In this document: positions 3,409 through 44,329 of the stretch, piece after piece
How the letters are laid out: every line of letters begins with the position of its first letter
Numbering within the stretch: the first letter of the stretch is position 1
Source: Minisyncoccota bacterium
Lineage (GTDB): Bacteria; Patescibacteriota; Minisyncoccia; Minisyncoccales; JAQTPW01
Assembly: GCA_028712565.1 (NCBI GenBank)
Contig: JAQTPW010000001.1
Location: 77,114 to 141,113 of the forward strand
DNA: 64,000 nt
Direction: 5' to 3'
Position numbers and translations under genes: made by a program
Notes under the pieces: model-generated
Told to the model about the DNA's origin: nothing
Databases searched by the model: none
What the model saw: the letters and a program-made list of their open reading frames with translations, nothing else

Positions 3409-3440
3409 AAAAGCTGGCTTTCGCCAGCTAATTTGTTGAG
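3409..3440. terminator. Bidirectional rho-independent terminator between pyrG (+) and rpmA (-)
   Basis: Stem agctggc / gccagct with tttc loop, flanked by T/A runs on both strands. Confidence 0.6.
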
Positions 3441-3458
3441 ATTAAATTTTTGGAAATA

Positions 3459-3734: not shown

Positions 3735-3760
3735 AAATTTTATATTAATTCAATAAAATT

Positions 3761-13719: not shown

Positions 13720-14406
13720 GTGAAGAAAATATTGCCAATTTTGGCGGTTGTGTGTTCGTTGATTTTGCTTTTGCCAGCTGCAGCACTTGCAGCAAAGTCG
13801 GCCGACTGCGTCACCATTCAAGACGGCGTACTTACGTACAGCGCCGGGCATTACTTAGCCGGCCACCCCCTGACCGTGGGTTATGATATCTTCGGATACA
13901 ACTATCAAGCCCACATGTTCAGAGGTTCCTATGCCAATGCGTATCTTGGCAAAGATGGCCTTCCGCCATACGAGGGCGACGATGTCGCATATCTTGCACA
14001 AAATCCTTCTGCGGCCAATAAATGGTATTGGCCATACAGAAATGATATGATCGAGATGAAATGGAACGACGCGTGGCTTTCCAATATGGATTGCAATGGA
14101 GATGGCTTACTCGATCGTCCCAGCGATAACGGCGGAACCTATATTGGTTCTGGTGCTTGGGAAACGAACCACCAGTGGGGCGTAAATCCTGATGGCAGTA
14201 ATTGGAATTATTTCGTCAAGATTGTTGCCGCACCTGATGATGCCACAAAATTAAGCGGCATCTGGTATACCGCTGATGGGAAAGAAATCGGCCCCGATAT
14301 TTGGGGGGAATTCGCAACGATAGAGGAGATCTACAACGATCAAAGCACTGGAGATCATGGCGTTCTCTATAGATCGCCAGCTGGTCCCGGCTTTGGCAAG
14401 TGGTAA
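13720..14406 (+). CDS. Secreted hypothetical protein (GTG start); markedly GC-richer than its surroundings
   Basis: RBS aaaaggagga 8 nt before GTG; signal peptide MKKILPILAVVCSLILLLPAAALA; 228 aa; composition shift visible in the sequence. Confidence 0.6.
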   Translation: MKKILPILAVVCSLILLLPAAALAAKSADCVTIQDGVLTYSAGHYLAGHPLTVGYDIFGYNYQAHMFRGSYANAYLGKDGLPPYEGDDVAYLAQNPSAANKWYWPYRNDMIEMKWNDAWLSNMDCNGDGLLDRPSDNGGTYIGSGAWETNHQWGVNPDGSNWNYFVKIVAAPDDATKLSGIWYTADGKEIGPDIWGEFATIEEIYNDQSTGDHGVLYRSPAGPGFGKW

Positions 14407-15900: not shown

Positions 15901-16857
15901 TTATTTTTTATCTTTTCCAAGCGAATGAAATTGGCGATGAATATCCCGCAATCTTTTATTTGTGACGTGGGTGTAGATTTGGGTTGTAACAATATTTCTG
16001 TGGCCCAGAAATTCCTGGATAGTCCTTAAATCAACTCCTTGGTTTAATAAATCGGTTGCCATTGAGTGCCTAAGGGTGTGAGGAGTTGTGAAAAATGGCA
16101 CGCCGGAAAGCAAGGCATATTTTTTAACGATTCTTTCAATGGAGCGGGCAGATAACCGCGCATCGGCGCCTGTTCTTGATCGATAGTGTATAAACAAAGC
16201 TTTGTCTTTGTCGCTTCTGGTTGCCAGATATTTTTTTATCCAGCCCAAAGCTCTTTCTGAAAAATAAACGGTTCTGGGATGCTTGCCTTTGCCGATAATG
16301 CCAAGTTCCAAATCTTTTTTATCCTTGGTGTTGGCGAATTGCTCGCGGTTTAGGGCGACTAGTTCGGCAATTCTTAACCCGGTTGAGAATAATGCCTCTA
16401 AAATAGCCCTGTCTCGGATGCCTTCGGGGTTATTCTGGTCTGCGGCTGATAAAAGCTTCTCAATTTGCTCTAAGCTAAGGAATTTTAGGGTTTTTTCGGC
16501 TTCAGCTGCCTTTTGGAGCTGTATTTTATCGGCAGGCAGTGATTCTATATCTTTTGCGGTAAAATAGCCCAGAAGGGCTCTTAAAGCGATAAGATAGTAG
16601 CTTTGAGTGTTCTTTTGCAATGGCTGGCCATTTGCAGACGAAAAACGGCTTAAATATAGGCGATAATCCCAGATATCGTCGGCAGTAAGCTGGTGGGGCA
16701 GTAATGCCTCTTTTTTTGCCTTTTTAAGCCATAAAACGAACTTTTGGAGGTATCTCTGGTAGTTTTCCTGGGTTTTATTAGAAAGGCCTTTTTCAACTTC
16801 GCAATAATCCAAAAAATCGGGGATATGGTTGATAATATTTTTTTCAGATTTTTTCAT
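15901..16857 (-). CDS. Tyrosine site-specific recombinase, XerC/XerD family
   Basis: C-terminal catalytic region HTLRHSMATDLLNQGVDLRTIQEFLGHRNIVTTQIYTHV (R..HxxR...Y); N-terminal core-binding domain; 318 aa. Confidence 0.85.
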   Translation of the reverse strand: MKKSEKNIINHIPDFLDYCEVEKGLSNKTQENYQRYLQKFVLWLKKAKKEALLPHQLTADDIWDYRLYLSRFSSANGQPLQKNTQSYYLIALRALLGYFTAKDIESLPADKIQLQKAAEAEKTLKFLSLEQIEKLLSAADQNNPEGIRDRAILEALFSTGLRIAELVALNREQFANTKDKKDLELGIIGKGKHPRTVYFSERALGWIKKYLATRSDKDKALFIHYRSRTGADARLSARSIERIVKKYALLSGVPFFTTPHTLRHSMATDLLNQGVDLRTIQEFLGHRNIVTTQIYTHVTNKRLRDIHRQFHSLGKDKK

Positions 16858-19521: not shown

Positions 19522-20649
19522 CTATTTTAAATATTCTAATAAATATCCGGCAATTGTTTTGCTTGCCTGGGGTTTGGCAAATTCCAAAGCCGCCTTTTGC
19601 ATATTTTTCATTTCTTCAGGCCTCATTATCAGGAATTTTAATTTGTCTAAGAAAAAATGCGGGGCTAAATTCGATTCTTCAATTACCAAGCCGGCGCCGC
19701 TTTCGGCATAGATATACGCATTTTTTAGCTGGTGTTCTTGTGCGGATTCGGAAAGCGGAATTAAAATACAAGGTTTTCCAACGCTGGCAATTTCAAATAT
19801 GCTGCCAGATCCTGCCCGGCTGACAATAATTTCTGCCGCCGCATAAGCTGTTTTCATTTCGTCTTCATCCAGAAACGGAAAGATGTGATAGTATTTTCCC
19901 AAATCTTCGGTAACCATAATTGGGCTTTCGGTTTTAACTTGTAAAAAATTTTTTTCGCCGCATTGGTGGATAATTTCAAATTCTTTCAGAAGATATGGCA
20001 GAATTTCAATAACAGTATCATTTATTTTTTGCGCGCCCTGACTTCCTCCCAATATTAAAACCAGTGGTTTGTCGCCTGAGAGATTAAACATTTTTTGCGC
20101 ATTTTCCGGATTTCCGTCAAGAATTTCTTTTCTTATCGGGTTTCCAACCAAGATCACTCTTTTAAAAGGCTGTGGCTCCCCTTTTTTTATCGGAAAAGAA
20201 ATAAAAACTTCGGAAGCAAAAAAACTTAGAAACTTATTTGCAAGCCCCGGCGTTGCGTCAGATTCATGCAGGAAAATCGGAACTCTTAAAATCCAGCCGG
20301 AAATTACCGCAGGCAAAGATCCATACCCGCCTTTGCTAAAAATTACGTCGGGAGTCAAAACAAAAATATAAAGGAATGCCTGTAAAATTCCGATTGGGGC
20401 TTTGATAAAGATATCAATGATATTTTCAAAGAAACTTTTAAATCCCCAATACCTTCTGATTTTTCCCGCCAAAATAGTTTCTTTATGGATATTTTCTTTT
20501 AATAAAAAATCTGAACTGAATTTATCTTTTGGCCCAAGAAAATAAAACTTGATGTCATCTTTTGCATGCATTTTTTTAATTTCCCGGGTAATTGCGATTA
20601 TCGGAGCTATATGTCCGGCAGTGCCGCCGCCGGTAAATAAAATTTTCAT
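19522..20649 (-). CDS. murG: Undecaprenyldiphospho-muramoylpentapeptide beta-N-acetylglucosaminyltransferase
   Basis: MKILFTGGGTAGHIAPIIAI N-terminus; GT28 architecture; sits in a dcw cluster. Confidence 0.9.
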   Translation of the reverse strand: MKILFTGGGTAGHIAPIIAITREIKKMHAKDDIKFYFLGPKDKFSSDFLLKENIHKETILAGKIRRYWGFKSFFENIIDIFIKAPIGILQAFLYIFVLTPDVIFSKGGYGSLPAVISGWILRVPIFLHESDATPGLANKFLSFFASEVFISFPIKKGEPQPFKRVILVGNPIRKEILDGNPENAQKMFNLSGDKPLVLILGGSQGAQKINDTVIEILPYLLKEFEIIHQCGEKNFLQVKTESPIMVTEDLGKYYHIFPFLDEDEMKTAYAAAEIIVSRAGSGSIFEIASVGKPCILIPLSESAQEHQLKNAYIYAESGAGLVIEESNLAPHFFLDKLKFLIMRPEEMKNMQKAALEFAKPQASKTIAGYLLEYLK

Positions 20650-20656
20650 ATAAGGT

Positions 20657-21778
20657 TTATGATGATTTTGAAATATTAAGCAGTATTCCTACGCCGATTA
20701 ATTCCGAAACCAAGGCAGAGCCGCCATAACTTATAAACGGCAAAGGAACTCCGGCCAAGGGCAAAAGCCCAACCATAGATCCGATATTAATTACTGCCTG
20801 AATTAAAATCCAAGAAGTGATTCCAAAGGCCAACAGTTGGGAAAATTGATTTTGCCCGCTTTTTCCGATTTTAAATCCTTGGACCAAAAATGTCAAAAAA
20901 AGGAGAATGAAAATCGCAGCGCCTATGAATCCAGTTTCTTCGGCCAATATTGCAAAAATTGAATCGGACATGGGTTCGGGCAAAAAGCCAAATTGCTGGC
21001 GGGATATTCCCAAACCCAAACCAAAGATTCCTCCAGAGCCAATTGTAATTAATGCTTGTTTTGCCTGATAGCCCAAACCCATAGGGCTGGTTTCCGGTTT
21101 TAAAAATACTAAAAGCCGATTGGCGCGGTAAGGGGCGATTTTTATTGCCAAAAATAATATGCCAATGCCGAATAAAATCAGGAAAATTGTGTGCAATACC
21201 GGCGTTCCGGACAGAAAATACATAATAGCCGCAACCGTAGCAATGACTCCCAAAGTGCTGATGTCTGGCTGAAAAAATAGAAGTATGCCTATAACCCCAA
21301 CAACCGCCAGAAATGCAATTAAAGTTTTGCTGAAATCTTTTGGAGATTTTTTTTGGCTGATTTTTTCATGCTGGGCAGAAAGCCATGCCGCCAAATAAAT
21401 AATAAAGGTTAATTTTAAAAATTCCGAGGGCTGGAGGGAAAATATTCTAAAATTTAGCCAGCGGCTTGCTCCTCCTAAAGTGGTTCCAATTTTTGGCAAA
21501 AAAACCATTGCCAATAAAATTAGATTTATTAAAAGCGCAACCCAAACCCATTTTTTTATGAAATTCAAATCAATTCTATAAGCGACAAAACCCAGCAGGA
21601 CTCCCGGGATTATCCCATAAAAAATTTGGTGGTTTAAATAGTGGTAAGTATTTCCAAATTTGTCTAAAGAAATTGAAGCCGAAACACTGGATAATACTAA
21701 AATCCCAAAAGTTAATATCGCCAAAGTCACTCCCAATAAAATAAAGTCAGGTTTTTTGTAATTGGTATTTTTGGGCAT
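20657..21778 (-). CDS. ftsW: SEDS family cell-division / peptidoglycan polymerase FtsW/RodA
   Basis: Polytopic membrane protein with C-terminal GVPLPFISYGGSALV motif; sits between murD and murG. Confidence 0.9.
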   Translation of the reverse strand: MPKNTNYKKPDFILLGVTLAILTFGILVLSSVSASISLDKFGNTYHYLNHQIFYGIIPGVLLGFVAYRIDLNFIKKWVWVALLINLILLAMVFLPKIGTTLGGASRWLNFRIFSLQPSEFLKLTFIIYLAAWLSAQHEKISQKKSPKDFSKTLIAFLAVVGVIGILLFFQPDISTLGVIATVAAIMYFLSGTPVLHTIFLILFGIGILFLAIKIAPYRANRLLVFLKPETSPMGLGYQAKQALITIGSGGIFGLGLGISRQQFGFLPEPMSDSIFAILAEETGFIGAAIFILLFLTFLVQGFKIGKSGQNQFSQLLAFGITSWILIQAVINIGSMVGLLPLAGVPLPFISYGGSALVSELIGVGILLNISKSS

Positions 21779-21779
21779 C

Positions 21780-21933
21780 CCAGTATATCAACTTCCAGTG
21801 CCAGACGTCTGTTGGCATTGGTATTTATATTTAATTAATCTTAAACCCAGAGATCTCCTTATGTGCCTTTTGTTATTTTTCTGGCTTTCCAGAACATATA
21901 CATAGAAGAACACGCTGGAAGTTGTATTACTGG
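21780..21933. repeat. Imperfect ~21-bp inverted repeats bracketing the murD-ftsW intergenic spacer
   Basis: cccagtatatcaacttccagtg at 21779-21800 versus the reverse complement of cacgctggaagttgtattactggg at 21911-21934; the gggcat/atgccc motif is present at both ends. Confidence 0.4.
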
Positions 21934-23195
21934 GCATACTTTTTTACAAATTTTTTGAATAAGTCCCCTTTTTCTTGATAATCGCGGAAAATGCTAAAAC
22001 TAGTAGAGGCGCAGGATAATAAAGCGATTTTTCCTTTTTCTGTGACGCTGTAGGCAATTTTTACCGCATCTTCCATATTATCGACAAAAAAATGTTGCGG
22101 TACGTGTTCGCTATGGGATTGCCGGAGGATTTCGCGCCAAATTTTTTCGCCCGTTGTCGGAAATAAAATCAAATTTTTTATATTTTTATTTTTTAAAATT
22201 TCTTTTGCTAATTTTTTAAAATCTATATTTCGGTCAAAACCGCCCAAAAAAATCGTCTGGACATCTTTTCCAAGTTTTTCAATTGCAAAAATGGCAGTTT
22301 CAGGAATTGTTGATAAGGCATCGTTATAAAAAGTGATGCCTTTATAAGTTCCAACCAATTCCAACCTGTGAGGAAGGGATTTGAATCCATTAATCGCTTT
22401 TTCAATAATTTTTTCGGGAATTTCGAATATCTTTCCGACTTGCCGTGCCGCATTTTTATCTAAATCATAATACTCCCCTTTTATCGGAATTTTTTTTGCT
22501 TTCGATTTTTTGGCAAATTCTTTTATAAGCTTATCTTCTGAATTATAAACTAAATAATCGCCCTTTTTTTGATACAGGGTGATATTTGCTTTAGATCGGG
22601 CGTATTCTTGGAAATTTCTATAATAATCTAAATGTTCGTGAAAAATATTTAAAAAAACAGCAATATGGGGAGATTTTTTGAGATTACATAGCTGATGGCT
22701 GGAAAGTTCGTAAACATAAACTTCTTTTTTGGTGGCATTTTTAAGGAAATTTAAAACTGGCGTTCCGATATTCCCAACCAAATGCGCAGGAATTCCAGCT
22801 TCTTTTAGAATTGCGTAGATCAAAGACGTGGTTGTGCTTTTTCCTTTAGTTCCCGTAATGCCGACAATTTGTCCGGGACAATTTTCAAAAAAAATATCGG
22901 TTTGAGTTTTTATTTTTTTTAATGCAGATTTTGGCAAAATTTTAAAAGGAATTCCCGGAGATTTAATAACGATATCGTAATTTTTCAACGAACTAAGATA
23001 ATCTTTTCCAACGTGTAGTTGTACGTTTTTATCTTTTATCTTTAATCTTAAATCTTTAATCTGATCTGCGACGCCGATTATTTTCTTTGGAAACAACTTT
23101 CTCAAAAACAAAAAAGTATCCTGTCCTTCTCTGCCAAAACCGAGAATCGCAATTCTCGCCCCGTACCAATTTTGCCATAGCTTTTTTATATCCAT
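21927..23195 (-). CDS. murD: UDP-N-acetylmuramoylalanine--D-glutamate ligase
   Basis: Mur ligase P-loop GITGTKGKSTTTSLI; N-terminal Rossmann segment typical of MurD; 422 aa. Confidence 0.9.
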   Translation of the reverse strand: MDIKKLWQNWYGARIAILGFGREGQDTFLFLRKLFPKKIIGVADQIKDLRLKIKDKNVQLHVGKDYLSSLKNYDIVIKSPGIPFKILPKSALKKIKTQTDIFFENCPGQIVGITGTKGKSTTTSLIYAILKEAGIPAHLVGNIGTPVLNFLKNATKKEVYVYELSSHQLCNLKKSPHIAVFLNIFHEHLDYYRNFQEYARSKANITLYQKKGDYLVYNSEDKLIKEFAKKSKAKKIPIKGEYYDLDKNAARQVGKIFEIPEKIIEKAINGFKSLPHRLELVGTYKGITFYNDALSTIPETAIFAIEKLGKDVQTIFLGGFDRNIDFKKLAKEILKNKNIKNLILFPTTGEKIWREILRQSHSEHVPQHFFVDNMEDAVKIAYSVTEKGKIALLSCASTSFSIFRDYQEKGDLFKKFVKKYAQ

Positions 23196-23228: not shown

Positions 23229-23264
23229 GAAATTAAAAACCCCCTCGAGCTACGAGAGGGTTAC
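23229..23264 (-). terminator. Rho-independent terminator for the minus-strand operon ending at 23288
   Basis: aaccccctcg agcta cgagagggtt; on the minus strand it is followed by tttttaatttc. Confidence 0.6.
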
Positions 23265-23287: not shown

Positions 23288-24022
23288 TTAGATTTTCGTG
23301 GTAGGATAAAGTCCCAAGATTTTTGCTTCTTTTTCCATGGCTTCGATTAAGGTATTTAGCTGATACCTTCTTTTCTGGTACATTTCGAAGTCATCTTCAA
23401 CAGCCGTTTGTTCTGCGGGATGGATATAATTTACTTCCACCCCGATTACTTTTTTTCCATCTTTAATTGCTCGAAGGACTGGAATAAATATGGAGTCCCA
23501 TTGGTCTCCGTATTCTCCTTTGTAGTTCAAGAAGTAGGGCGCAATTTCCGGTCTGAAAATTCTGGGCCCTGACCAAGCATCCAGGACCCGGCCGGTAAGC
23601 AAACGGAATGCTTCATTTCCCAGCCATTCAAAGTGCTGCTGGATTAATGGATAAGAGCTTAAACTTCTTCTTTTCGGAATAACGAGATCGGCAATCCCGG
23701 CGGTTATTGGTTCGATAAGTTTAGCAAGATATGGGACGAGCGGTGCTTTTTCTGGTTCCATCCATATTATAACCCCATTAGTCCCAGTTAAGTCATTTGC
23801 GAGTTGAATTGCGATGCGTCTGCCTACACCCATTCCCGTTGCCGAATCTGCAACTTTTGCCCCATATTTGCGGAAAATATCTTTTATTTCCGGGGGCGAG
23901 TTGTCGACAACGATAATCTCGTAACCTAACTCGCTAGCTTGTTTTACGGTTTCTATCGCAAGTTTTGCGCGAACATCTTGCAGGGCTTTGTACATCGTGG
24001 TCGTAGCAATAACTGCGGCCAT
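23288..24022 (-). CDS. GT-A-fold nucleotide-sugar transferase-like protein (GpgS/DPM1-like resemblance); GC-richer than the flanking genes
   Basis: EIIVVDNSPPEIKDIF and GMGVGRRIAIQ...VIIWMEPE segments loosely resemble GT2/GT81 cores; 244 aa; assignment is weak. Confidence 0.35.
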   Translation of the reverse strand: MAAVIATTTMYKALQDVRAKLAIETVKQASELGYEIIVVDNSPPEIKDIFRKYGAKVADSATGMGVGRRIAIQLANDLTGTNGVIIWMEPEKAPLVPYLAKLIEPITAGIADLVIPKRRSLSSYPLIQQHFEWLGNEAFRLLTGRVLDAWSGPRIFRPEIAPYFLNYKGEYGDQWDSIFIPVLRAIKDGKKVIGVEVNYIHPAEQTAVEDDFEMYQKRRYQLNTLIEAMEKEAKILGLYPTTKI

Positions 24023-24078
24023 TTAATCCTCCTTCTTTCCCTATTTTGCTGATAAATTACCTCGTTAGTTATAACAGA

Positions 24079-25395
24079 TTATCTTAATTTTGTCAAAAGG
24101 AAGGGCACTTTTCCTAATTTTTTTGCTTTTTCAAGGCAAAATTGAAATGCTTTCTTGCTTTCTTTTTTTGTGCCGACGCATTCAAAGGGTTTTATACTCC
24201 CCTGCCCTAGCAGGCCTTTCATTGTCGGAAGCAAACTTTTATTTACAAAAATATCTTTCCCAAAAATTTTTATTAAATCCTTTTCTTTTAAATACGGATA
24301 TAAACTCATATAAACAAAAAGGCATTTCGGGCAATTCCCGCACCAACGCTCCTTTGCGCGTAAAGTTCCTTGAGAATTGATTCTCATTCCGGCGTTGCAG
24401 CTGGAAAAAACGGAAAAATATTGCTGATAATTTGTCAGCATTTTGGAAATTTCGAGTTCTGAATATTTTCTTAAATAACTGAAATAATTTATATTTTTTG
24501 CCAAAAATTTTTTACAATAAATTTTGAATTTTTTTTCAAAATACGAACTTTTTGCCCATTGATGGTTGATTATTTTCCCCAGATATTTTACATTGCCCTC
24601 GTTGGCGCTTTTTTCATTGGAAAATGCGATATTTTTATAGTCGAATATTACGGCGCAAATTACGGAAATAAAAGACAATAAGGCAGTAAAAGGCGTATGG
24701 CCGTTTAAATACCCTTTTTTATTTAACTCTAAAAGTTTTTTATCAATTATTCTCTGGACTATAATTTGTTTTTTAATCCCGGAAATCTTTACGGTTTTTT
24801 GGATTTTCTCAACGGAGTTAACGGTAAATAAAGAAATTTCTTTTTTTTGTTTTTTCAAACTTTCTAAAGTAACAATTGAATCCCGGCCGCCGGCAAACGG
24901 CACCAAATACCTGTTTTTTAATTGTTTTTCATAGTTGTCCCCTATTTTCTTGCTAACAGAAATAATTTGCAAAAAATCTTTTTTCTGCCAGTCAATTTTA
25001 TTTTCGTAAAAAAATTGCCCCATTCCATCAATTATTAAATTTTTCCACCATTTAATTTGTTCAGGGTATAAAAATCCGGCCGGAATTTCAATTTCCGGAG
25101 AACAGGTGGCTTTCCAATAACTGGGAATTTCCATTAGCCCTAAGTTAAAAATTAAATTATTCAATACGCTATCCCCTATTTTGTGCAAACGTTTTTTATC
25201 AATATTTTTTATTATTATTTTTGGTTTAAAATGTATATCGGAAATCCTTCCTCGTTCTGCGGAGCTTCCGAGGACAAAGTGAAAAAAAATTTCCAAATCA
25301 TTCTTTGAAAATTTATATTCAAAACTTTTATATACAAATCTTGGGTATTTTTTCCGTAATTCTTGTAATTTGTAATTTATAATTTGTAATTTCAT
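24079..25395 (-). CDS. PP-loop ATP pyrophosphatase superfamily protein (QueC/WbuX-like; candidate N-acetyl-sugar amidotransferase)
   Basis: PP-loop VPFAGGRDS (SGGxDS-type) plus C-terminal zinc-type CGNCPKC; 438 aa; start shares ATGA with the mraY stop. Confidence 0.5.
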   Translation of the reverse strand: MKLQIINYKLQELRKKYPRFVYKSFEYKFSKNDLEIFFHFVLGSSAERGRISDIHFKPKIIIKNIDKKRLHKIGDSVLNNLIFNLGLMEIPSYWKATCSPEIEIPAGFLYPEQIKWWKNLIIDGMGQFFYENKIDWQKKDFLQIISVSKKIGDNYEKQLKNRYLVPFAGGRDSIVTLESLKKQKKEISLFTVNSVEKIQKTVKISGIKKQIIVQRIIDKKLLELNKKGYLNGHTPFTALLSFISVICAVIFDYKNIAFSNEKSANEGNVKYLGKIINHQWAKSSYFEKKFKIYCKKFLAKNINYFSYLRKYSELEISKMLTNYQQYFSVFSSCNAGMRINSQGTLRAKERWCGNCPKCLFVYMSLYPYLKEKDLIKIFGKDIFVNKSLLPTMKGLLGQGSIKPFECVGTKKESKKAFQFCLEKAKKLGKVPFLLTKLR

Positions 25396-26543
25396 TATAA
25401 TAATCTTATTGCCACACCAATGACTGCCAAAATTACGCTAATTATCCAAAAGCGCATTGTAACCTTATAAGACGGCCAGCCCTTTGCCTCAAAATGGTGG
25501 TGAATCGGAGTGGAAAGCCAGATTTTTTTGTGGCGGAATTTTTTAGATAACAATTGCAATATAATAGATCCCACTTCCAATACTAAAATTCCGGCGATAA
25601 TCGGCAAGACAACAACCGAATCTGTTAAAAAGGCAACAACAGTCATAGTTGAGGTCAATCCCAGAATTCCGGTTTCTGACATAAAAAATCTGGCAGGAGG
25701 TATGTTAAACCATAAAAAGGTAAATAAGGCGCCGACAATTGCTAGGCAAAATGTGGCTAAATCAAATTTTCCGGTAGCTAACGCCATATTTCCTGAGGCC
25801 AAAGCCGACTGTCCTTGTGAAAAAGCAATAATTGAAAAAGCGCCAAAAATTGTGGCAAAAACTCCGCCGGCCAATCCATCCAAGCCATCGACAACTCCGC
25901 CTGACCAGGAAGCCAGCATTACCAAAATAAATAAAGGTATTATCCAAATGCCGATTGTAAAATCAACGCCTTGAGGGAAATTTCCTATCAAAGGGATATG
26001 AATTGTTTTCCAGCCCAGCAGAAAATAAAACCACAGCCCCCCAATTAAACCTATTAAAAAAACGAATGATAATCTGCGCTTGAAGCTCATTCCTCCGCCA
26101 ATATATTTTCCCTTTCCAAAAACAGTCAATGCGTCGTCAATCAAGCCCACAATAGAACCGGCGACCAAAGCAAAGAGCGGCAGCCAAGTTCCGCTTCGTG
26201 ATAAAAAGTTAATTTTTTTAAGCCACCAAGGATTTGGAAAAAATGAAAGGCCAAAAAATAAAAATATTACCAATAAAACCGAAATCCAAATTAACAAACC
26301 GCCGCCCCTTGGAGTCCCAACTTCTTTTTCTTTATGCAGAGAATAAAAAATATTTGCCTGCTCTCCGGTAATTGTTTTTGCCCTAGCTTCCTTTTTCCAA
26401 AACTTAAATTTGTATAAAAGCTTTATCAAAAAAGGAGCCAGCAGAAAAGACAAAGATGCGGTAATTGCCGCAATGGAAAAAAATTTTATTACGTTAAAAG
26501 TAAAAAGCGTCATGAAAATTATTTTGCTAAATTTGAATTCCAA
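25395..26543 (-). CDS. mraY: Phospho-N-acetylmuramoyl-pentapeptide transferase
   Basis: GLIDDALTV, VVDGLDGLAGG and TPIHHHFE motifs; polytopic; an alternative start at 26513 would remove the overlap with the upstream gene. Confidence 0.85.
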   Translation of the reverse strand: MEFKFSKIIFMTLFTFNVIKFFSIAAITASLSFLLAPFLIKLLYKFKFWKKEARAKTITGEQANIFYSLHKEKEVGTPRGGGLLIWISVLLVIFLFFGLSFFPNPWWLKKINFLSRSGTWLPLFALVAGSIVGLIDDALTVFGKGKYIGGGMSFKRRLSFVFLIGLIGGLWFYFLLGWKTIHIPLIGNFPQGVDFTIGIWIIPLFILVMLASWSGGVVDGLDGLAGGVFATIFGAFSIIAFSQGQSALASGNMALATGKFDLATFCLAIVGALFTFLWFNIPPARFFMSETGILGLTSTMTVVAFLTDSVVVLPIIAGILVLEVGSIILQLLSKKFRHKKIWLSTPIHHHFEAKGWPSYKVTMRFWIISVILAVIGVAIRLL

Positions 26544-27619
26544 ACTTCATTAACCCATTTCCAGCTTGCATCCATGCCGCCGAAAAACCAGATTTTATCT
26601 TGAAAAACCAATGCGGTTATATCTTCTCTGCCAAGCCATATGGGATCTTCTTTTGTTTTTTGCCAATTTATTCCATCGGCAGAATACCAAATATCATTTG
26701 CGCCTCCGTTTATAGCATCATTAAATCTTCCAATTACCCAGAGGTAATTTTTATATGCAACAGAACCAAATCCCTGCCGCGTCTGCCAAGGAGCACTTTC
26801 AGAAACCTGCGTCCAGCTTATTCCGTCTTCAGAATTCCAAACGTCATTATATATTTTATTATTCAAATCCATTCCGCCCAATAACCAAAGTTTTCCGGAA
26901 AATTCCACAACTTCATGATCCCAGCGGCCTTCCCAAGCCGCATTGGAAGTTGCTTGGATCCAATTGATTCCGTCTTCAGAATACCAGACATCGTTTTTTG
27001 TAATTCCTAAATCATATCTTACGCCGCCCAATATCCAGAGCTTGTCTTTAAAAACTACCAATTGATGTCCTTCTCTGCCCTGCCATGCGGCATTGGAAGC
27101 TTCCATTCGCCAATTTATTCCATCCGTACTTGACCAAATGTCGTTTGCACAGCCAATTGCCGGCCCCCAGCCGCCTATTAACCAAAGCTTGTCTTTAAAA
27201 ACCGCGAGCTGAATAGATCTTCTTTTTCCCCAAGGGGCGTCTTGAGTAATTAGCTGCCAATCTTTTCCATTTTCAGAAGCCCATACGTCGCTAAAATGCG
27301 GCGCTCTCCAATATTGAACCATATTAGGGGCCAAAATACTGTCATTTCCATCCAGACCGCCCATTAGCCAAAGTTTGTCTTTAAAAACTATAGCCGAATA
27401 TGAATCGCGGGCTTCCCAAGCCGCATTTGACGTTGCCATTTCCCAAGTTAGCAAGCCCGGGTCAAAAATATTTTCCTTTTCATTGTTTTTTTTCTCGGAT
27501 TTTTGCCCGGGAAAAATTTGGATTTCGTTTGTTTTTTTAATTAAAAAAACTCCTGCGGAGATTAGTATTAGAAACAAAGCTGAAATTGCCAGTTTTTGCA
27601 AAAAACTTTTTGAACTCAT
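26519..27619 (-). CDS. Membrane-anchored Kelch-repeat beta-propeller protein
   Basis: Six repeats of DKLW(L/I)xGG with conserved W/Y spacing; N-terminal TM/signal anchor. Confidence 0.7.
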   Translation of the reverse strand: MSSKSFLQKLAISALFLILISAGVFLIKKTNEIQIFPGQKSEKKNNEKENIFDPGLLTWEMATSNAAWEARDSYSAIVFKDKLWLMGGLDGNDSILAPNMVQYWRAPHFSDVWASENGKDWQLITQDAPWGKRRSIQLAVFKDKLWLIGGWGPAIGCANDIWSSTDGINWRMEASNAAWQGREGHQLVVFKDKLWILGGVRYDLGITKNDVWYSEDGINWIQATSNAAWEGRWDHEVVEFSGKLWLLGGMDLNNKIYNDVWNSEDGISWTQVSESAPWQTRQGFGSVAYKNYLWVIGRFNDAINGGANDIWYSADGINWQKTKEDPIWLGREDITALVFQDKIWFFGGMDASWKWVNEVWNSNLAK

Positions 27620-27626: not shown

Positions 27627-28535
27627 TTACAAGTTAATCCAATTTATCAGATTTTGCATCTCTGAAATCCTGCTTTCTTCAGTTTTTGTCCTCAAAATTA
27701 CATTTATGTAGATGTTTTTATTTGCGTCCTGAAAAATATAGAGGATGCAGCCGCTGGCTTTTTGCGTAAAACCGGTTTTTCCGCCGACAAAATTTTGGCC
27801 GGGCTCCAGAACCAAATCAAAAAGCCCGTTTTCAACTGATTTGTTTTCGTGGCCCTTTGCAGTAATTTCAAAAATAGCCGGCTGGTTTTCTAAAATATAT
27901 TTTGCTAATTTTGATAAGTCGCTAGCGCTTGAAAAATTTAAGTCAGTGCCGCTTGTATCAAGGCCGGTTGGATTTATAAATTTTGTGTGGGTTTGACCCA
28001 AACTCAATGCCTTTTGATTCATTTCTGCTACAAACTCATCAGCCCCCATTACTTCAGAAAGAGCAAAAGCCGCATCGTTGCTGGAATAAATCAGCATCAG
28101 GTTTAAAAGCTCTTCCACTGTGTATTCATCACCAGCTTTTAAGTTTCCGAAATTTTGGGTATTTCCCTGATCGGCGGCAGTTTTTGAGACGATTATCGCA
28201 TAAGAAGGATTATAAATGTCAGGGTTATCGAAAACTATCAAAGCCGTCATTAATTTGGTTATTGAAGCAATTGGAAGTGGCAATTTGGCATTTTTTTGGA
28301 AAAGTATATTTTCTTCCTTTTTGCTAATTTGTAATGATAAAGCAGAAACCGCATCAATGTCCAACTCCGGTTTTTGAACCGTTTCAGGAATTTTGACAGG
28401 TGCTAAATTTTCAACAGGAAAGGAAATTTCTGCCAAAAGATAACCTTCAAGATTTTTTTGGAGAAAATTCAGCCCGCCGAAAAATGCCAAACTAATCAGA
28501 AAAGCGGAAAAAAAATATTTAAGATTTTTTGTCAT
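27627..28535 (-). CDS. dacA: D-alanyl-D-alanine carboxypeptidase (S11, PBP5-like)
   Basis: SITK (SxxK), YSSNDAA (SxN) and KTGFT (KTG) motifs; signal peptide MTKNLKYFFSAFLISLAFFG. The upstream in-frame Met at 28622 would overlap aspS by 68 nt, so the start at 28535 is preferred. Confidence 0.8.
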   Translation of the reverse strand: MTKNLKYFFSAFLISLAFFGGLNFLQKNLEGYLLAEISFPVENLAPVKIPETVQKPELDIDAVSALSLQISKKEENILFQKNAKLPLPIASITKLMTALIVFDNPDIYNPSYAIIVSKTAADQGNTQNFGNLKAGDEYTVEELLNLMLIYSSNDAAFALSEVMGADEFVAEMNQKALSLGQTHTKFINPTGLDTSGTDLNFSSASDLSKLAKYILENQPAIFEITAKGHENKSVENGLFDLVLEPGQNFVGGKTGFTQKASGCILYIFQDANKNIYINVILRTKTEESRISEMQNLINWINL

Positions 28536-28554
28536 TCGCTTAATAAACTTGGTT

Positions 28555-29913
28555 TTACTTAGTTTTCTTTTTTGCGTCTTTTGACTTTTCCTTTGGCTGC
28601 AAAACCGAAAGCCGTTCGTCAATTCTTTCCATGTCTCTCGGAAAAATGCTGGCTTCCCGGATATTTTCCAGCCCTAAAATTTGTTTTGTAATTCTTTCCA
28701 GTCCCAAAGCAAACCCTCCTTCGGGCGGCATTCCGTATTTAAATGCCTGCAAATAATATTGAAAGTCCCCTGGATTGTTTCCCCATTTTTTTATATTACT
28801 AACAAGCGTTTCATAATCATTAATTCTTTGCCCGCCGGTGACAATTTCCAGCCCCCGGCATAAAAGATCAAAACTTAACGTATAGTCTTTGTCTTCCGGG
28901 TCAGGATGCGTGTAAAATGGCCGTTTTTTTGTCGGGTAATGAGTAATGAAAATCAGGTCGGAATTATATTTTTCTTTTGCGAAGTCGCAGATTTCTTTTT
29001 CGTCGTCCGGTTCTAAATCAGGCTCTTTTCTATTATCTCTTTTTGTCCTTTCAAATATTTTTTCTTGAGCTTCTCTTATTTTTATTCGCGGGATTTTTTC
29101 GTTTATTTTTGGCAATTCGATTCCAAGTATTTTTAATTCGGCAGAATTTTCTTTTTGAATTTGTGAAAAAATATTTGTAATCACAATTTCGCAGGTATCC
29201 AGTAATTCTTCCCATGAAGAAATGAATCCCATTTCAGCATCCAAGCTTATGTATTCTGAAAGATGGCGGGTTGTGACGCTGGGCTCTGCTCGATAGACGC
29301 TAGTAATTGTAAATACTCTTTCAAAAACTCCCACCATAATCTGCTTATAAAGCTGGGGGCTTTGGGCAAGATACGCATCGTAATTGTAATAATCAATATG
29401 AAAAACTGCCGCTCCCCCTTCGGCATTTGCCGGAACTATTGTCGGGCTTTTAAATTCGGTAAATCCCAGATCTTTTAAAGTTTTTTGGAAAGTTTCCAGA
29501 ATTGTTTCTTGAATTTTAAAAATAGCTCGGATTTTTTCATTTCTTAAAGTCAAAGGCCTGAAGTCCAAAAGAGTTGGCAAAGTTAATTTTAGGTCTTTAA
29601 TTTCAAAAGGAAGAGTTTGCGCTTTTGCCAAAATTTTTACTTTCTCGGCGCTTACCTCCACTTTTCCAGTTTCAAGGTTGGGATTTACCATATTTGCCGG
29701 CCTTTCCTGAACATTTCCTTCAACTTCCAAAACATCTTCGTTATGAATTTCACGAACTAAATCGGGGCTGCAAACAATTTGCAAAATTCCAGACCGGTCT
29801 AATAAATCCAAAAAAACAATTTTCCCGTGGTCTCTCCGGGTATCCACCCAGCCGGAAACTTTTACTGGCTTTCCGATAAAATTTGGAGTTCTGTTGTTTA
29901 ATATTCTTTCCAT
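28555..29913 (-). CDS. aspS: Aspartate--tRNA ligase (class IIb, short archaeal/non-discriminating type) with a Lys-rich C-terminal tail
   Basis: N-terminal OB fold, motif 2 FRAE, C-terminal GGFALGLERI; 452 aa. Confidence 0.8.
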   Translation of the reverse strand: MERILNNRTPNFIGKPVKVSGWVDTRRDHGKIVFLDLLDRSGILQIVCSPDLVREIHNEDVLEVEGNVQERPANMVNPNLETGKVEVSAEKVKILAKAQTLPFEIKDLKLTLPTLLDFRPLTLRNEKIRAIFKIQETILETFQKTLKDLGFTEFKSPTIVPANAEGGAAVFHIDYYNYDAYLAQSPQLYKQIMVGVFERVFTITSVYRAEPSVTTRHLSEYISLDAEMGFISSWEELLDTCEIVITNIFSQIQKENSAELKILGIELPKINEKIPRIKIREAQEKIFERTKRDNRKEPDLEPDDEKEICDFAKEKYNSDLIFITHYPTKKRPFYTHPDPEDKDYTLSFDLLCRGLEIVTGGQRINDYETLVSNIKKWGNNPGDFQYYLQAFKYGMPPEGGFALGLERITKQILGLENIREASIFPRDMERIDERLSVLQPKEKSKDAKKKTK

Positions 29914-33774: not shown

Positions 33775-35193
33775 TCAAGGTTTTTCTTTAAGCCTTGCGC
33801 TTAAATTGTAGATGTTTCCGGCGCCCATTAAGATTACCACTTCTTTGCCTTTTAGGTTAGTGTTTAAATAATCAATAATTTTATCTTTCGGCAAATATAT
33901 TGTATTTTTGCGTCCGATTGTTTTCACTAATTTTTCGGAAGAAACTTTTTTGCTGACTTCGGGCGTTTCCCGGCCGGCTACATCAAAAATATCGGTAATA
34001 ATAAGTTTATCCACCGGAGCGTCTTTGAAAACTTTCACAAAATCTTTGAATAAATAATATGTTCTTTGATATTGGTGCGGCTGGTAAATGCACCAGATTT
34101 TTCCCTTTGGATATTTTTCCCGCGCCGCTTTTAAAGTGACTCTTACTTTTGTCGGGTGATGCGCATAATCATTTATAAGCGTTATCTGTTTTTTGTTTAC
34201 TGTTATCTTACTTATATCAAACCTTCGCCACGCGCCCTTGTATTCAGAAAGCGCTTTGAAAGAAATTTTATCAGGGATTTTCAGAATTCTCGCCACCGCC
34301 AAGGCCGACAGCGCATCCATAATATTGTGATCCCCGGGAATTTTCATTATTTTTCGCAATCTCTTTACGTCTTTTGCCTGCGAAAATCCGTATTTATTAA
34401 TTCTTGATTTGTTAATTGTTAATTGGTCATTGTTAATTATTCGTTTTATGTTTTTATCGTCGCCATTAATTACCAAATATCCATCTTTTGGCAAATGGCT
34501 AATGTATTTTTTAAAAGTTTTGAGTATATTATTTAAATTTTTGTAATAGTCCAGATGGTCAGCTTCAATGTTTGTCAAAACTAAAATTTTCGGCCAATAA
34601 TTCAAAAAGGACGCAAAGTGCTCGTCGGCCTCGATGACGAGGTAGCTGGTATCTGGTATCTGGTTGCTGGTTGCTGGTTGCGAGTTGCTGGTAACGACTT
34701 TTCCGCCCATACGGAAGTTGCTGTCGCCGAATTCTCTGATTTTCGTGCCGACAATGACAGTTGGATCAAGGCCGGCTTTTTCTAACAGAATTCCAAGCAT
34801 TGCAGTTGTGGTGCTTTTTCCATGAGTGCCAGAAACCGCAATCGTAAAATATTGTTTTGTTAATTCCCCTAGCGCCTGAGGATAACTACAAATTTTCAAT
34901 TTACAATTTTCAATTTTCAATTTTTTAGCTCTGACATATTCAGGATTCGTTGGCCGAACTGCTGGACTATAAATAACTAAATCCACAATATTTGGGACAT
35001 TTTTTGCAGAATGTGGCCCAATATGAATTTTAGCACCAAGCTTTTCTAAATCTTTTGTGATTTCTGAAGATGCCAAATCTGAACCACTGACCGTGTCGCC
35101 TCTTTTTAAGTAATATCTAGCTAATGCCGACACTCCAATTCCGCCAATACCAATAAAATGAACCCCGTTAGAAATTTTCGATAATTTTTTCAT
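33775..35193 (-). CDS. murC: UDP-N-acetylmuramate--L-alanine ligase
   Basis: HFIGIGGIGVSALA N-terminus, AVSGTHGKSTTTAML P-loop; 472 aa; contains an internal low-complexity insert. Confidence 0.9.
   Translation of the reverse strand: MKKLSKISNGVHFIGIGGIGVSALARYYLKRGDTVSGSDLASSEITKDLEKLGAKIHIGPHSAKNVPNIVDLVIYSPAVRPTNPEYVRAKKLKIENCKLKICSYPQALGELTKQYFTIAVSGTHGKSTTTAMLGILLEKAGLDPTVIVGTKIREFGDSNFRMGGKVVTSNSQPATSNQIPDTSYLVIEADEHFASFLNYWPKILVLTNIEADHLDYYKNLNNILKTFKKYISHLPKDGYLVINGDDKNIKRIINNDQLTINKSRINKYGFSQAKDVKRLRKIMKIPGDHNIMDALSALAVARILKIPDKISFKALSEYKGAWRRFDISKITVNKKQITLINDYAHHPTKVRVTLKAAREKYPKGKIWCIYQPHQYQRTYYLFKDFVKVFKDAPVDKLIITDIFDVAGRETPEVSKKVSSEKLVKTIGRKNTIYLPKDKIIDYLNTNLKGKEVVILMGAGNIYNLSARLKEKP
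34645..34694. repeat. Heptanucleotide tandem repeat (ctggtat/ctggttg) inside murC, encoding TSNSQPATSNQIPDTS
   Basis: ctggtatctggtatctggttgctggttgctggttgcgagttgctggtaacg on the + strand. Confidence 0.6.
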
Positions 35194-41431: not shown

Positions 41432-41446
41432 TGTTAAATAGTTAAA

Positions 41447-42070: not shown

Positions 42071-42074
42071 AAAT

Positions 42075-42464: not shown

Positions 42465-42465
42465 T

Positions 42466-42948: not shown

Positions 42949-42959
42949 AATGATATAGT

Positions 42960-44328: not shown

Positions 44329-44329
44329 T

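What the first reader, a model, noticed from the sequence alone, without database searches (positions are those of the whole stretch)
23288..26543. Two extra genes inserted between mraY and murD in the dcw cluster
mraY is translationally coupled (ATGA overlap) to a 438-aa PP-loop ATP pyrophosphatase with a zinc-type CxxCxxC. That protein resembles QueC-like N-acetyl-sugar amidotransferases. It is followed by a GC-rich GT-A-like gene and then a terminator before murD. A PP-loop amidotransferase coupled to the lipid I synthase suggests ATP-dependent amidation or modification of a lipid-linked cell wall precursor by a route different from the MurT/GatD system of Gram-positives. A Kelch propeller gene and a dacA-like gene lie just upstream.
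Basis: partly seen in the sequence, partly recalled or inferred. Interest (0 to 1): 0.6.

Follow-up and report, generated by a model that had tools for sequence, protein, structure and literature searches.

The report
MurL epimerase gene in cell-wall cluster
The "extra" PP-loop gene after mraY is a homologue of MurL, the known ATP-dependent enzyme that flips L-glutamate to D-glutamate on the cell-wall precursor and works with the neighbouring MurD2-type ligase, so it is not a new amidation system, and the second extra gene is a rare sugar transferase found here in only this genome.

Summary
On the minus strand lie dacA-like, Kelch, mraY, a 438-aa gene, a 244-aa gene, a terminator hairpin, then murD-ftsW-murG. 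The overlap is TAATG (1 nt), not ATGA.

The interpretation does not hold. [quoted passage not shown] It does have a QueC-like PP-loop fold and four invariant Cys that mirror the QueC zinc site. This fits MurL's published ATP-to-AMP chemistry.

The downstream "murD" carries the published MurD2 (L-Glu-adding) residues Glu187 and Arg322, plus Phe400. So do 69-71 of 72 MurL-adjacent MurDs from many phyla; E. coli, Thermotoga and Streptococcus MurD do not. MurL fusions with MurD, MurE and MurB exist. All are cytoplasmic steps, so a lipid-linked substrate is unlikely.

The order aspS-dacA-mraY-murL-murD-ftsW-murG-gltX is conserved in Paceibacteria-type genomes.

The 244-aa gene has a GT-A fold and belongs to a rare family (46 homologues). 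It is compositionally foreign and absent from all 83 related loci. It sits in a variable murL-murD spacer.

Verdict: a new member of a known kind, of low to moderate interest.

The parts
24079..25395 (-). [quoted passage not shown]
   Evidence: NCBIfam NF041275 E=2e-80, 270 bits. Precomputed Pfam PF26299 plus PF26298 on this protein and its relatives. AlphaFold2 pLDDT 94. Best solved-structure match is QueC 3bl5, E=5e-6, target TM 0.70.
24877..24894 (-). PP-loop-type ATP-binding motif AGGRDS (residues 168-173)
   Evidence: G170 and D172 are invariant and G169 is at least 95% conserved in 84 sequences. S173 is at least 90% conserved in the 28-sequence alignment. hhalign aligns the motif to SGGQDS of E. 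coli QueC.
24322..24399 (-). Four-Cys cluster C333...C352-x2-C355-x2-C358 (SCN...WCGNCPKC), a putative structural zinc site
   Evidence: All four Cys are invariant in 84 sequences. The pattern mirrors E. coli QueC C188...C197-x2-C200-x2-C203. That these four are the QueC zinc ligands is from memory.
21927..23195 (-). [quoted passage not shown]
   Evidence: TIGR01087 298 bits. Residues at E. coli positions 182/319/348/414/416 are E187, L294, R322, T398, F400. The published MurD2 signature is E197, R358, P433, F435 (PMC8788868). The same signature occurs in 69-71 of 72 MurL-adjacent MurDs.
25395..26543 (-). mraY (longest ORF 382 aa, likely start at 26513). Its TAA stop overlaps the murL ATG by 1 nt.
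   Evidence: Pfam PF00953 and TIGR00445 E=5e-51. Junction sequence. N-termini of relatives.
23288..24022 (-). 244-aa soluble GT-A-fold glycosyltransferase-like gene, an accessory insertion in the murL-murD spacer. It has a strong AGGAGG ribosome-binding site 5 nt before the ATG. Its conserved motifs are VVVDxS and WxEPEK.
   Evidence: AlphaFold2 pLDDT 96.5. Foldseek hits to mannosylglycerate synthase, GpgS, ArnC and GtrB, query TM 0.5-0.65. Only 46 homologues, from CPR and DPANN. Absent from 83 MurL loci. GC 0.44. Sequence, alignment.
23238..23262 (-). Intrinsic-terminator-like hairpin (10 pairs, 6 G-C, followed by a T-run) between the GT gene and murD
   Evidence: sequence.
26519..27619 (-). 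Kelch beta-propeller protein with an N-terminal hydrophobic segment, a lineage-specific insertion between dacA and mraY
   Evidence: Pfam Kelch families, E=6e-27. Present at the same position only in L013, L016 and L019.
27627..28622 (-). dacA-like S11 D-Ala-D-Ala carboxypeptidase (the longest ORF overlaps aspS, so the true start is probably downstream)
   Evidence: Pfam Peptidase_S11 E=9e-40. Its position is conserved in relatives.
19522..21778 (-). ftsW (20657-21778) and murG (19522-20649), the rest of the conserved cluster
   Evidence: Pfam FTSW_RODA_SPOVE E=1e-93; Glyco_transf_28 plus Glyco_tran_28_C.
33775..35193 (-). murC, which supplies UDP-MurNAc-L-Ala, the substrate of MurD2
   Evidence: TIGR01082 398 bits, above its cutoff of 335.

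Best explanation
The 438-aa gene encodes a MurL-family enzyme, and the murD downstream of it encodes a MurD2-type ligase. Together they form the known alternative route that puts D-glutamate into the peptidoglycan stem peptide.

The proposed sequence of steps is:
1. MurC makes UDP-MurNAc-L-Ala.
2. MurD2 ligates L-Glu instead of D-Glu.
3. MurL uses one ATP to activate the alpha-carboxylate of that terminal L-Glu. The PP-loop would form an acyl-adenylate and release PPi.
4. MurL inverts the now acidic C-alpha.
5. [quoted passage not shown]
6. MurE, MurF and MraY then proceed as usual.

What is shown here is homology, fold, the conserved motifs, the gene linkage and fusions, and the MurD2 residue signature. 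What comes from the literature on the Xanthomonas, Micromonospora and Salinispora enzymes is the reaction itself and the ATP-to-AMP stoichiometry. What is inferred is adenylation on the PP-loop, a structural zinc held by C333, C352, C355 and C358, and a catalytic base among the conserved H233, H278, K282, E287 or C406.

The murL-murD2 pair simply occupies the murD slot of the dcw cluster. The tight mraY-murL junction is operon packing, not a functional link to lipid I.

The 244-aa GT-A gene is an unrelated accessory gene, probably acquired horizontally. It landed in the variable murL-murD spacer and is read through from the operon up to its own terminator. Elsewhere its family sits in amino-sugar and surface-polysaccharide clusters, so it most likely glycosylates a non-peptidoglycan acceptor.
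For: Family assignment:
- NF041275 MurL E=2e-80 over model positions 65-395.
- Pfam MurL_N plus MurL_epimerase_C on this exact protein and its relatives, and JGI names the relatives as this epimerase.

Fold and motifs:
- High-confidence model. Its best solved matches are all PP-loop adenylating enzymes: QueC, QatC, Cap9, TtuA, argininosuccinate synthase and MnmA.
- The PP-loop aligns to QueC.
- The four invariant Cys mirror the QueC zinc motif.
- This matches the published ATP-to-AMP requirement of MurL (PMC8788868, PMC5808125).

Linkage to MurD:
- A MurD homologue lies directly downstream of MurL in 74 of 83 loci from Patescibacteria, Bacteroidota, Firmicutes, Proteobacteria, Acidobacteria and others.
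- Fusions MurL-MurD, MurD-MurL, MurE-MurL and MurB-MurL exist.

MurD2 signature:
- Window MurD has E187 and R322, the two residues whose reversal converts MurD2 into MurD (PMC8788868). It also has F400 and L294.
- MurL-linked MurDs have E at position 182 in 69 of 72, R at 348 in 71 of 71, L or I at 319 in 68 of 71, and F or Y at 416 in 68 of 71.
- Canonical MurDs differ: E. coli D/K/K/L, T. maritima D/K/K/F, S. agalactiae T/K/R/W.

Other points:
- No glutamate racemase or class-IV aminotransferase domain was found in any window ORF of 150 aa or more.
- GT gene: fold, rarity, sugar-cluster contexts next to DegT and epimerase genes, absence from 83 loci, deviant GC, and unrelated cargo in the same spacer in relatives.
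Against: - The score against the Xanthomonadales equivalog model is 270 bits against a cutoff of 700. The protein is therefore a distant family member, not a certified equivalog, and no CPR MurL has been assayed.
- This clade lacks the roughly 40-residue C-terminal tail present in most other MurLs.
- Absence of murI from the whole genome could not be checked. Only 64 kb of it is visible.
- MurD position 414 is Thr, not the Pro of Xanthomonas MurD2.
- Public databases call these MurDs D-glutamate ligases.
- The GT gene is co-oriented with mraY-murL, has a strong ribosome-binding site and lies before the terminator. It is therefore co-expressed with wall-synthesis genes, and a wall-related role cannot be excluded.
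Confidence: 0.84

Rival explanations
1. The PP-loop protein is an ATP-dependent amidotransferase that amidates a lipid-linked wall precursor (lipid I or II), as a non-MurT/GatD route to isoglutamine or a similar amide.
For: - QueC-like fold. QueC and some relatives do pass an adenylated carboxylate to ammonia.
- The carboxylate MurL is thought to activate (Glu alpha-COOH) is the same one that MurT/GatD amidates (my own knowledge).
- 1-nt overlap with mraY.
Against: - Clear membership of the MurL family, whose assayed members epimerise and release AMP without amidation (PMC8788868).
- No glutaminase or ammonia-donor gene in the cluster.
- No hit to WbuX, QueC or MurT models.
- Fusion partners are soluble UDP-precursor enzymes, not membrane-step enzymes.
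- The partner MurD has L-Glu-type residues, which calls for an epimerase.
Confidence: 0.03
2. The protein is a tRNA- or nucleobase-modifying PP-loop enzyme (TilS, QueC, TtuA or MnmA type) that merely sits in the dcw cluster.
For: Structural neighbours are QueC, TtuA and MnmA. One JGI record names a 70%-identical relative 'TilS/MesJ' (P0017).
Against: - No NCBIfam or Pfam hit to TilS, QueC, TtuA or MnmA at E<=0.01, while MurL scores E=2e-80.
- Sequence similarity to QueC is limited to the 33-residue PP-loop stretch.
- Strict linkage and fusion to Mur enzymes across phyla.
Confidence: 0.01
3. It is a MurL-family enzyme with a diverged job in this lineage. It would adenylate the stem-peptide glutamate of a UDP-MurNAc peptide for something other than, or in addition to, epimerisation. 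Examples are transfer to another nucleophile or proofreading of mis-incorporated L-Glu by a MurD that mainly uses D-Glu.
For: - Only 270 bits against the equivalog cutoff of 700.
- Missing C-terminal tail.
- No biochemical data exist for any CPR member.
- QueC-like relatives (QatC, Cap9) use the same fold for conjugation chemistry.
Against: - The catalytic-looking residues are invariant from CPR to Proteobacteria and Bacteroidota.
- The partner MurD carries both specificity-switching MurD2 residues.
- The gene pair sits in the housekeeping murD slot, so it must deliver the normal D-Glu precursor for MurE.
Confidence: 0.08
4. The 244-aa GT-A protein is a functional part of the wall pathway here. 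It would glycosylate or otherwise decorate a UDP- or lipid-linked peptidoglycan precursor, rather than being a passenger gene.
For: - Same strand, 56-nt spacer after murL, strong AGGAGG site, and the terminator comes only after it.
- Structural neighbours include the polyprenyl-phosphate glycosyltransferases ArnC and GtrB.
Against: - Absent from all 83 related murL loci, including the closest ones.
- In other genomes it lies in sugar-nucleotide and polysaccharide clusters beside DegT aminotransferase and epimerase genes.
- It lacks the transmembrane helices of ArnC and GtrB (244 aa).
- Foreign base composition.
- The same spacer carries unrelated cargo in relatives.
Confidence: 0.1

Closest known systems
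MurL (XOO_1319) of Xanthomonas oryzae: UDP-N-acetyl-alpha-D-muramoyl-L-alanyl-L-glutamate epimerase (Feng et al. 2017; reviews PMC8788868, PMC5808125; NCBIfam NF041275; Pfam PF26298 and PF26299)
   Same: Homologous over about 330 residues (E=2e-80). Same two-domain Pfam architecture. Encoded immediately upstream of a MurD2-type ligase. The PP-loop fits the reported ATP-to-AMP co-substrate use.
   Different: Distant: 270 bits against the 700-bit equivalog cutoff. Shorter, because it lacks the C-terminal tail. Sits inside the dcw cluster right after mraY. Comes from a Patescibacteria (Paceibacteria-type) genome, a group not listed in the published distribution. Not assayed.
[quoted passage not shown]
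   Same: Window MurD has Glu and Arg at the two positions (E. coli D182 and K348) whose reversal switches MurD2 to MurD. It has Phe at the L416 position and lies next to murL.
   Different: Thr instead of Pro at the A414 position. Leu at the K319 position; the Xanthomonas residue there is not known to me. Scores above the canonical murD model cutoff and is annotated as a D-Glu ligase in databases.
QueC (7-cyano-7-deazaguanine synthase) and QueC-like enzymes QatC and Cap9
   Same: Best structural matches (3bl5: E=5e-6, target TM 0.70). Shared PP-loop xGGxDS and a C...CxxCxxC four-Cys site. All activate a carboxylate with ATP.
   Different: No QueC HMM hit. Sequence similarity is confined to the PP-loop. 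MurL has an extra N-terminal domain of about 150 residues and a different substrate. The outcome is epimerisation and hydrolysis, not amidation, nitrile formation or conjugation.
MurT/GatD lipid II isoglutaminyl synthase of Gram-positives
   Same: Acts on the alpha-carboxylate of the stem-peptide glutamate and uses ATP.
   Different: MurT is a Mur-ligase-fold enzyme that forms an acyl-phosphate on lipid II and works with the glutaminase GatD. Here the fold is a PP-loop, no glutaminase is present, and the substrate is the soluble UDP precursor.
GT-A glycosyltransferases: mannosylglycerate synthase (GT78), glucosyl-3-phosphoglycerate synthase (GT81), ArnC and GtrB (GT2)
   Same: The 244-aa protein shares the GT-A Rossmann-like fold (query TM 0.5-0.65) and the VVVDxS nucleotide-binding strand.
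   Different: 12-18% identity. Pfam GT2 score is below its cutoff (20 against 23.3 bits). An invariant E-P-E-K replaces the canonical DxD. No membrane helices. Acceptor unknown.

Membership tests
[quoted passage not shown] | Significant sequence homology to the characterised Xanthomonadales MurL model | tested here: met
   NF041275 E=2e-80, 270 bits, protein residues 86-422 against model positions 65-395 of 447.
[quoted passage not shown] | Score above NCBIfam's equivalog cutoff (700 bits), i.e. a certified same-function orthologue | tested here: not met
   270 bits against 700. The model is restricted to Xanthomonadales, so distant phyla are expected to fall below it.
[quoted passage not shown] | Pfam two-domain architecture MurL_N plus MurL_epimerase_C | tested here: met
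   Precomputed PF26299 and PF26298 on the identical protein P0001 and on all 120 listed relatives. The local Pfam copy lacks these models.
[quoted passage not shown] | Encoded next to, or fused with, a MurD2-type ligase | tested here: met
   murD lies downstream, separated only by the inserted GT gene. The genes are directly adjacent in 74 of 83 related loci and fused in several.
[quoted passage not shown] | Genome lacks glutamate racemase (MurI) and D-amino-acid aminotransferase | tested here: inconclusive
   Neither is present among window ORFs of 150 aa or more. The window is only 64 kb of the genome.
[quoted passage not shown] | ATP/Mg2+-dependent, unidirectional L-to-D epimerisation with AMP release | not testable with these tools
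   Needs an enzyme assay. The PP-loop fold is consistent with it.
MurD2 (L-Glu-adding MurD) | Glu at E. coli MurD D182 and Arg at K348 (the specificity-switching pair) | tested here: met
   E187 and R322. The criterion is from PMC8788868. Controls: E. coli D/K, T. maritima D/K, S. agalactiae T/R.
MurD2 (L-Glu-adding MurD) | Pro at A414 and Phe at L416 | tested here: inconclusive
   T398 and F400. Among 72 MurL-linked MurDs, position 414 is A, P, S or T and position 416 is F or Y in 68 of 71. The published mutants at these two sites did not change specificity.
MurD2 (L-Glu-adding MurD) | Uses L-Glu, not D-Glu, as substrate | not testable with these tools
   Needs an enzyme assay.
PP-loop ATP pyrophosphatase superfamily (QueC-like branch) | Rossmann-like alpha/beta fold with an N-terminal SGGxDS-type PP-loop | tested here: met
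   AGGRDS at 168-173. Foldseek probability 1.0 to QueC, QatC, TtuA, ArgG and MnmA. hhalign matches the PP-loop.
QueC family proper | Match to QueC family models | tested here: not met
   No QueC model hit at E<=0.01 in NCBIfam or Pfam. hhalign similarity covers only 33 residues.
WbuX / TIGR03573 N-acetyl-sugar amidotransferase | Match to TIGR03573 | tested here: not met
   MurL is the only NCBIfam hit at E<=0.01.
TilS (tRNA-Ile lysidine synthase) | Match to TilS models | tested here: not met
   No hit. The JGI 'TilS/MesJ' label on one relative is a PP-loop-level misnomer.
MurT/GatD | Mur-ligase-fold MurT plus an adjacent GatD glutaminase | tested here: not met
   The 438-aa protein has no Mur-ligase domain. 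No GATase lies in the cluster.
GT-A glycosyltransferase (GT2-like), for the 244-aa protein | GT-A fold | tested here: met
   pLDDT 96.5. 139 PDB matches at E<=1e-3, the top ones all GT-A enzymes.
GT-A glycosyltransferase (GT2-like), for the 244-aa protein | Pfam GT2 score above its cutoff, and a DxD metal-binding motif | tested here: not met
   PF00535 scores 20 bits against a cutoff of 23.3. At the expected place there is an invariant E89-P-E91-K92.

The most novel reading that the evidence does not exclude
The rare 244-aa GT-A protein has an E-P-E-K motif in place of DxD and is otherwise found only in about 45 CPR and DPANN sequences, beside amino-sugar genes. In this genome it has been wired into the mraY-murL transcript. 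The novel reading is that it decorates a peptidoglycan precursor or another undecaprenyl-linked wall intermediate, giving this lineage a wall modification that is co-regulated with lipid I synthesis.

A second, less likely, novel reading is that CPR MurLs pass the Glu adenylate to ammonia as well as epimerising it.
Probability: 0.08. Interest if true: 0.55.

Novelty: new member of a known kind. Interest (0 to 1): 0.27.

Why it matters
The main value is corrective. What looked like a new cell-wall amidation system is the MurD2/MurL D-glutamate route, described in 2017.

Three side results are worth keeping:
1. The route is far more widespread than the reviews say ("relatively few genera"). At least 598 species-level genomes matched, spanning Patescibacteria, Bacteroidota, Firmicutes, Acidobacteria and others. 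In Paceibacteria-type genomes the pair sits in the housekeeping murD slot.
2. The partner MurDs are annotated in public databases as D-glutamate ligases. A simple residue rule flags them as L-Glu ligases: Glu at position 182, Leu or Ile at 319, Arg at 348 (E. coli numbering).
3. The reviews describe MurL as lacking known domains. Here it models confidently as a QueC-like PP-loop enzyme with a four-Cys site. This gives a concrete frame for its unresolved adenylation-epimerisation mechanism and for inhibitor design.

Tried and rejected
- The local Pfam scan of the 438-aa protein gave only a spurious sub-threshold WHD_ROQ1 hit. The MurL Pfam models are newer than the local copy, and the assignment came from NCBIfam and the precomputed Pfam hits.
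- A sequence search of the PDB with MurL found nothing at E<=1, so no solved MurL is detectable by sequence.
- The listing of cluster members on distant and fused representatives returned no organism names. I therefore could not pull a characterised Xanthomonas or Micromonospora sequence for a direct pairwise comparison.
- Literature searches found nothing in the open library linking MurL to CPR or Patescibacteria, to PP-loop or QueC, or linking murI absence to CPR.
- I looked for repeats flanking the GT gene as insertion scars and found only short, chance-level matches.
- Promoter-like hits in the region are no more frequent than in shuffled sequence (22 against 20.2 +/- 4.7), so I assign no promoter to murD.
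- I considered whether the MurD2 signature is just CPR phylogeny. I rejected this because the signature tracks MurL adjacency in Bacteroidota, Firmicutes and Proteobacteria as well, while canonical Firmicute and Proteobacterial MurDs lack it.

Full report
**Observation**

All genes of the region lie on the minus strand. In order they are:
- aspS (28555-29913)
- an S11 D-Ala-D-Ala carboxypeptidase-like gene (27627-28622)
- a Kelch propeller gene (26519-27619)
- mraY (25395-26543)
- a 438-aa ORF (24079-25395)
- a 244-aa ORF (23288-24022)
- murD (21927-23195)
- ftsW, murG and gltX

Pfam and NCBIfam confirm the named genes. murC lies further upstream at 33775-35193.

The mraY stop and the 438-aa start share one base as TAATG, not ATGA. 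After the 244-aa gene comes a hairpin with a 10-pair stem and a T-run, at 23262-23238. The 244-aa gene has GC 0.44 and GC3 0.42, against 0.31 and 0.33 for its neighbours murL and murD and 0.38 for the whole window.

**What the 438-aa protein is**

NCBIfam gives a single hit: NF041275, MurL of Xanthomonadales, the UDP-N-acetyl-alpha-D-muramoyl-L-alanyl-L-glutamate epimerase. The hit has E=2e-80 and 270 bits over residues 86-422. It is below the 700-bit equivalog cutoff but is unambiguous homology.

The identical protein is in the public collection as a 'hypothetical protein' of a Candidatus Pacebacteria MAG. It carries precomputed Pfam PF26299 (MurL_N) and PF26298 (MurL_epimerase_C). JGI names many relatives of 65-74% identity as this epimerase. 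No model of WbuX/TIGR03573, QueC, TilS or MurT matched.

MurL was discovered in Xanthomonas oryzae (XOO_1319). [quoted passage not shown] The reaction is unidirectional and consumes one ATP, which ends up as AMP. [quoted passage not shown]

**Fold and motifs**

An AlphaFold2 model built on 28 diverse homologues is confident (pLDDT 94.1, pTM 0.93). Its best solved-structure matches are:
- QueC (3bl5: E=5e-6, target TM 0.70; also 2pg3)
- the QueC-like QatC and Cap9
- TtuA, argininosuccinate synthase and MnmA

All of these are PP-loop ATP pyrophosphatases that adenylate a substrate. hhalign aligns LVPFAGGRDS of the window protein with VVVFSGGQDS of E. coli QueC.

In 84 MurL sequences from many phyla, the invariant residues include G170, D172, G232-H233-x-P235, H278-Q279, K282, E287, S306, S332-C333-N334, W351-C352, C355 and K357-C358. 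C406 is at least 95% conserved.

The pattern C333...C352-x2-C355-x2-C358 parallels C188...C197-x2-C200-x2-C203 of E. coli QueC. To my knowledge those four are the QueC zinc ligands.

It also gives the published ATP-to-AMP chemistry a structural basis: adenylation of the Glu alpha-carboxylate on the PP-loop, proton exchange at the acidified C-alpha, then hydrolysis. The last three steps are inference.

**The partner ligase**

The review gives four residues that distinguish MurD2 from E. coli MurD: D182 becomes E197, K348 becomes R358, A414 becomes P433, and L416 becomes F435. The double reversal E197D/R358K switches MurD2 to D-Glu use. Separately, K319T lets E. coli MurD accept L-Glu (PMC8788868).

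After fixing the E. coli numbering on known catalytic residues, the window MurD reads E187, L294, R322, T398 and F400 at positions 182, 319, 348, 414 and 416.

I extracted the MurD encoded downstream of MurL in 72 loci from Patescibacteria, Bacteroidota, Firmicutes, Proteobacteria, Acidobacteria, Rokubacteria and others:

| E. coli position | Residue in MurL-linked MurDs |
|---|---|
| 182 | Glu in 69 of 72 |
| 348 | Arg in 71 of 71 |
| 319 | Leu or Ile in 68 of 71 |
| 416 | Phe or Tyr in 68 of 71 |

Canonical MurDs with solved structures differ at positions 182/319/348/416. E. coli has D/K/K/L, Thermotoga maritima 4buc has D/K/K/F, and Streptococcus agalactiae 3lk7 has T/K/R/W.

The signature therefore follows MurL linkage, not taxonomy. 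The window murD is best read as a MurD2. Public sources nevertheless name these proteins 'D-glutamate ligase' or 'Mur ligase family protein'.

**Linkage and distribution**

A full scan of 1.84 billion representative proteins found 2449 MurL-like clusters at E<=1e-3. Roughly a quarter of the best 150 are 740-1040 residues long. The seven I checked are fusions: MurL-MurD, MurD-MurL, MurE-MurL and MurB-MurL. All partners are cytoplasmic UDP-precursor enzymes, which argues against a lipid-linked substrate.

In the 80 best loci plus three from metagenomes, a MurD homologue follows MurL directly in 74 of 83. Several of the exceptions are cut off by contig ends.

In Paceibacteria-type genomes the order aspS-dacA-mraY-murL-murD-ftsW-murG-gltX is conserved. 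mraY and murL are usually 0-45 nt apart. But the coupling reflects murL-murD2 occupying the murD slot, not a functional tie to lipid I.

No glutamate racemase or class-IV aminotransferase domain occurs in any window ORF of 150 aa or more. The rest of the genome is unseen.

**The 244-aa gene**

Its model is confident (pLDDT 96.5) and has a GT-A fold. The nearest structures are mannosylglycerate synthase, glucosyl-3-phosphoglycerate synthase, mannosyl-3-phosphoglycerate synthase, ArnC and GtrB, with query TM 0.5-0.65 and 11-18% identity.

Pfam GT2 is just below its threshold. The family has invariant D40 (VVVDxS) and W-x-E89-P-E91-K92 where GT-A enzymes usually have DxD.

Only 46 homologues were found among 5.8 billion clusters, from CPR bacteria and DPANN archaea. 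In three other genomes the gene sits alone on its strand inside sugar-nucleotide or surface-polysaccharide clusters. There it lies next to a DegT-type aminotransferase and NAD-dependent epimerase/dehydratase genes.

None of the 83 murL loci contains it. In relatives the murL-murD spacer ranges from an overlap to 3.6 kb. It holds unrelated cargo: pilin-like, transposase-like, lipase-like, toxin-antitoxin-like and orphan ORFs.

With its deviant composition, the gene is best explained as a horizontally acquired passenger. It is nevertheless co-oriented with murL, has a strong AGGAGG site, and precedes the only good terminator. It is therefore probably transcribed with mraY-murL. No flanking repeats mark the insertion.

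**Comparison with the known, and verdict**

The system works like, and by homology belongs to, the MurD2/MurL alternative D-glutamate pathway. It is not an analogue of MurT/GatD, a WbuX-type amidotransferase or a tRNA modifier.

It is a new, unassayed and distant member of a known kind. It comes from a phylum not listed in the published distribution.

The points of modest interest are:
- the breadth of the pathway;
- the systematic mis-annotation of MurD2;
- the 182/319/348 residue rule;
- the QueC-like PP-loop and four-Cys architecture of MurL, which I could not find described in the searchable literature.

The remaining uncertainty is biochemical and is set out under the decisive next steps.

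Noticed in passing
window 26519-27619 (-); L013 1534-2622, L016 ~2547-3542, L019 ~2870-3874: A Kelch beta-propeller protein with an N-terminal hydrophobic segment is inserted between dacA and mraY. It is found at this position in only three of 83 related loci, so it is a second lineage-specific insertion in the cluster. Its function is unknown.
   Followed up: partly
loci L011, L012, L013, L020-L025, L032, L033, L046, L048, L050, L056 (murL-murD spacer): The spacer between murL and murD is a hot spot for unrelated cargo in Paceibacteria-type genomes. It runs from an overlap up to 3.6 kb and holds pilin-like, transposase-like, lipase-like, toxin-antitoxin-like and orphan ORFs.
   Followed up: partly
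proteins P0170, P0174, P0177, P0190, P0203, P0227, P0235: Natural fusions of MurL with MurD (in both orders), MurE and MurB. These are Rosetta-stone evidence that MurL acts among the cytoplasmic UDP-MurNAc-peptide steps.
   Followed up: yes
P0326, P0351, P0365, P0412 and others; window 21927-23195: MurDs encoded next to MurL are named 'UDP-N-acetylmuramoylalanine--D-glutamate ligase' by NCBI and JGI, although they carry the MurD2 (L-Glu) residues. This is probably a systematic mis-annotation.
   Followed up: partly
L005 5001-5720, L006 5001-5741, L008 5001-5732: The rare 244-aa GT-A family (E-P-E-K motif) recurs in CPR and DPANN genomes as a lone gene. It is transcribed divergently from a DegT aminotransferase plus epimerase pair inside sugar clusters. 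That conserved micro-context hints at an amino-sugar substrate.
   Followed up: partly
window 25354-25395 (-): The 5' end of murL contains an AAATTACAA-type short repeat. It encodes KLQIINYKLQ, an extension of about 7 residues not seen in relatives.
   Followed up: no
window 40415-44839 (+): Radical SAM (40415-41431), a LigB/Memo-like protein (41447-42070), a second radical SAM (42960-44039) and AMMECR1 (44330-44839). This is an AmmeMemoRadiSam-type gene set.
   Followed up: no
window 47254-53847 (-): A run of surface-protein genes with Big_13, cohesin, dockerin and WxL-interacting peptidoglycan-binding domains. This is cellulosome-like adhesion modules in a CPR genome.
   Followed up: no
window 56000-63529 (-) and 5689-8595 (-): A giant 2509-aa ORF and a 968-aa ORF, neither with any Pfam hit at E<=1e-5.
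   Followed up: no
window 13720-14406 (+), 46586-47134 (-), 15901-16857 (-): Two ORFs with much higher GC than the window: 0.49 (no Pfam hit) and 0.48 (a PEBP-family protein). There is also a tyrosine recombinase/integrase gene. These may be further horizontally acquired pieces.
   Followed up: no
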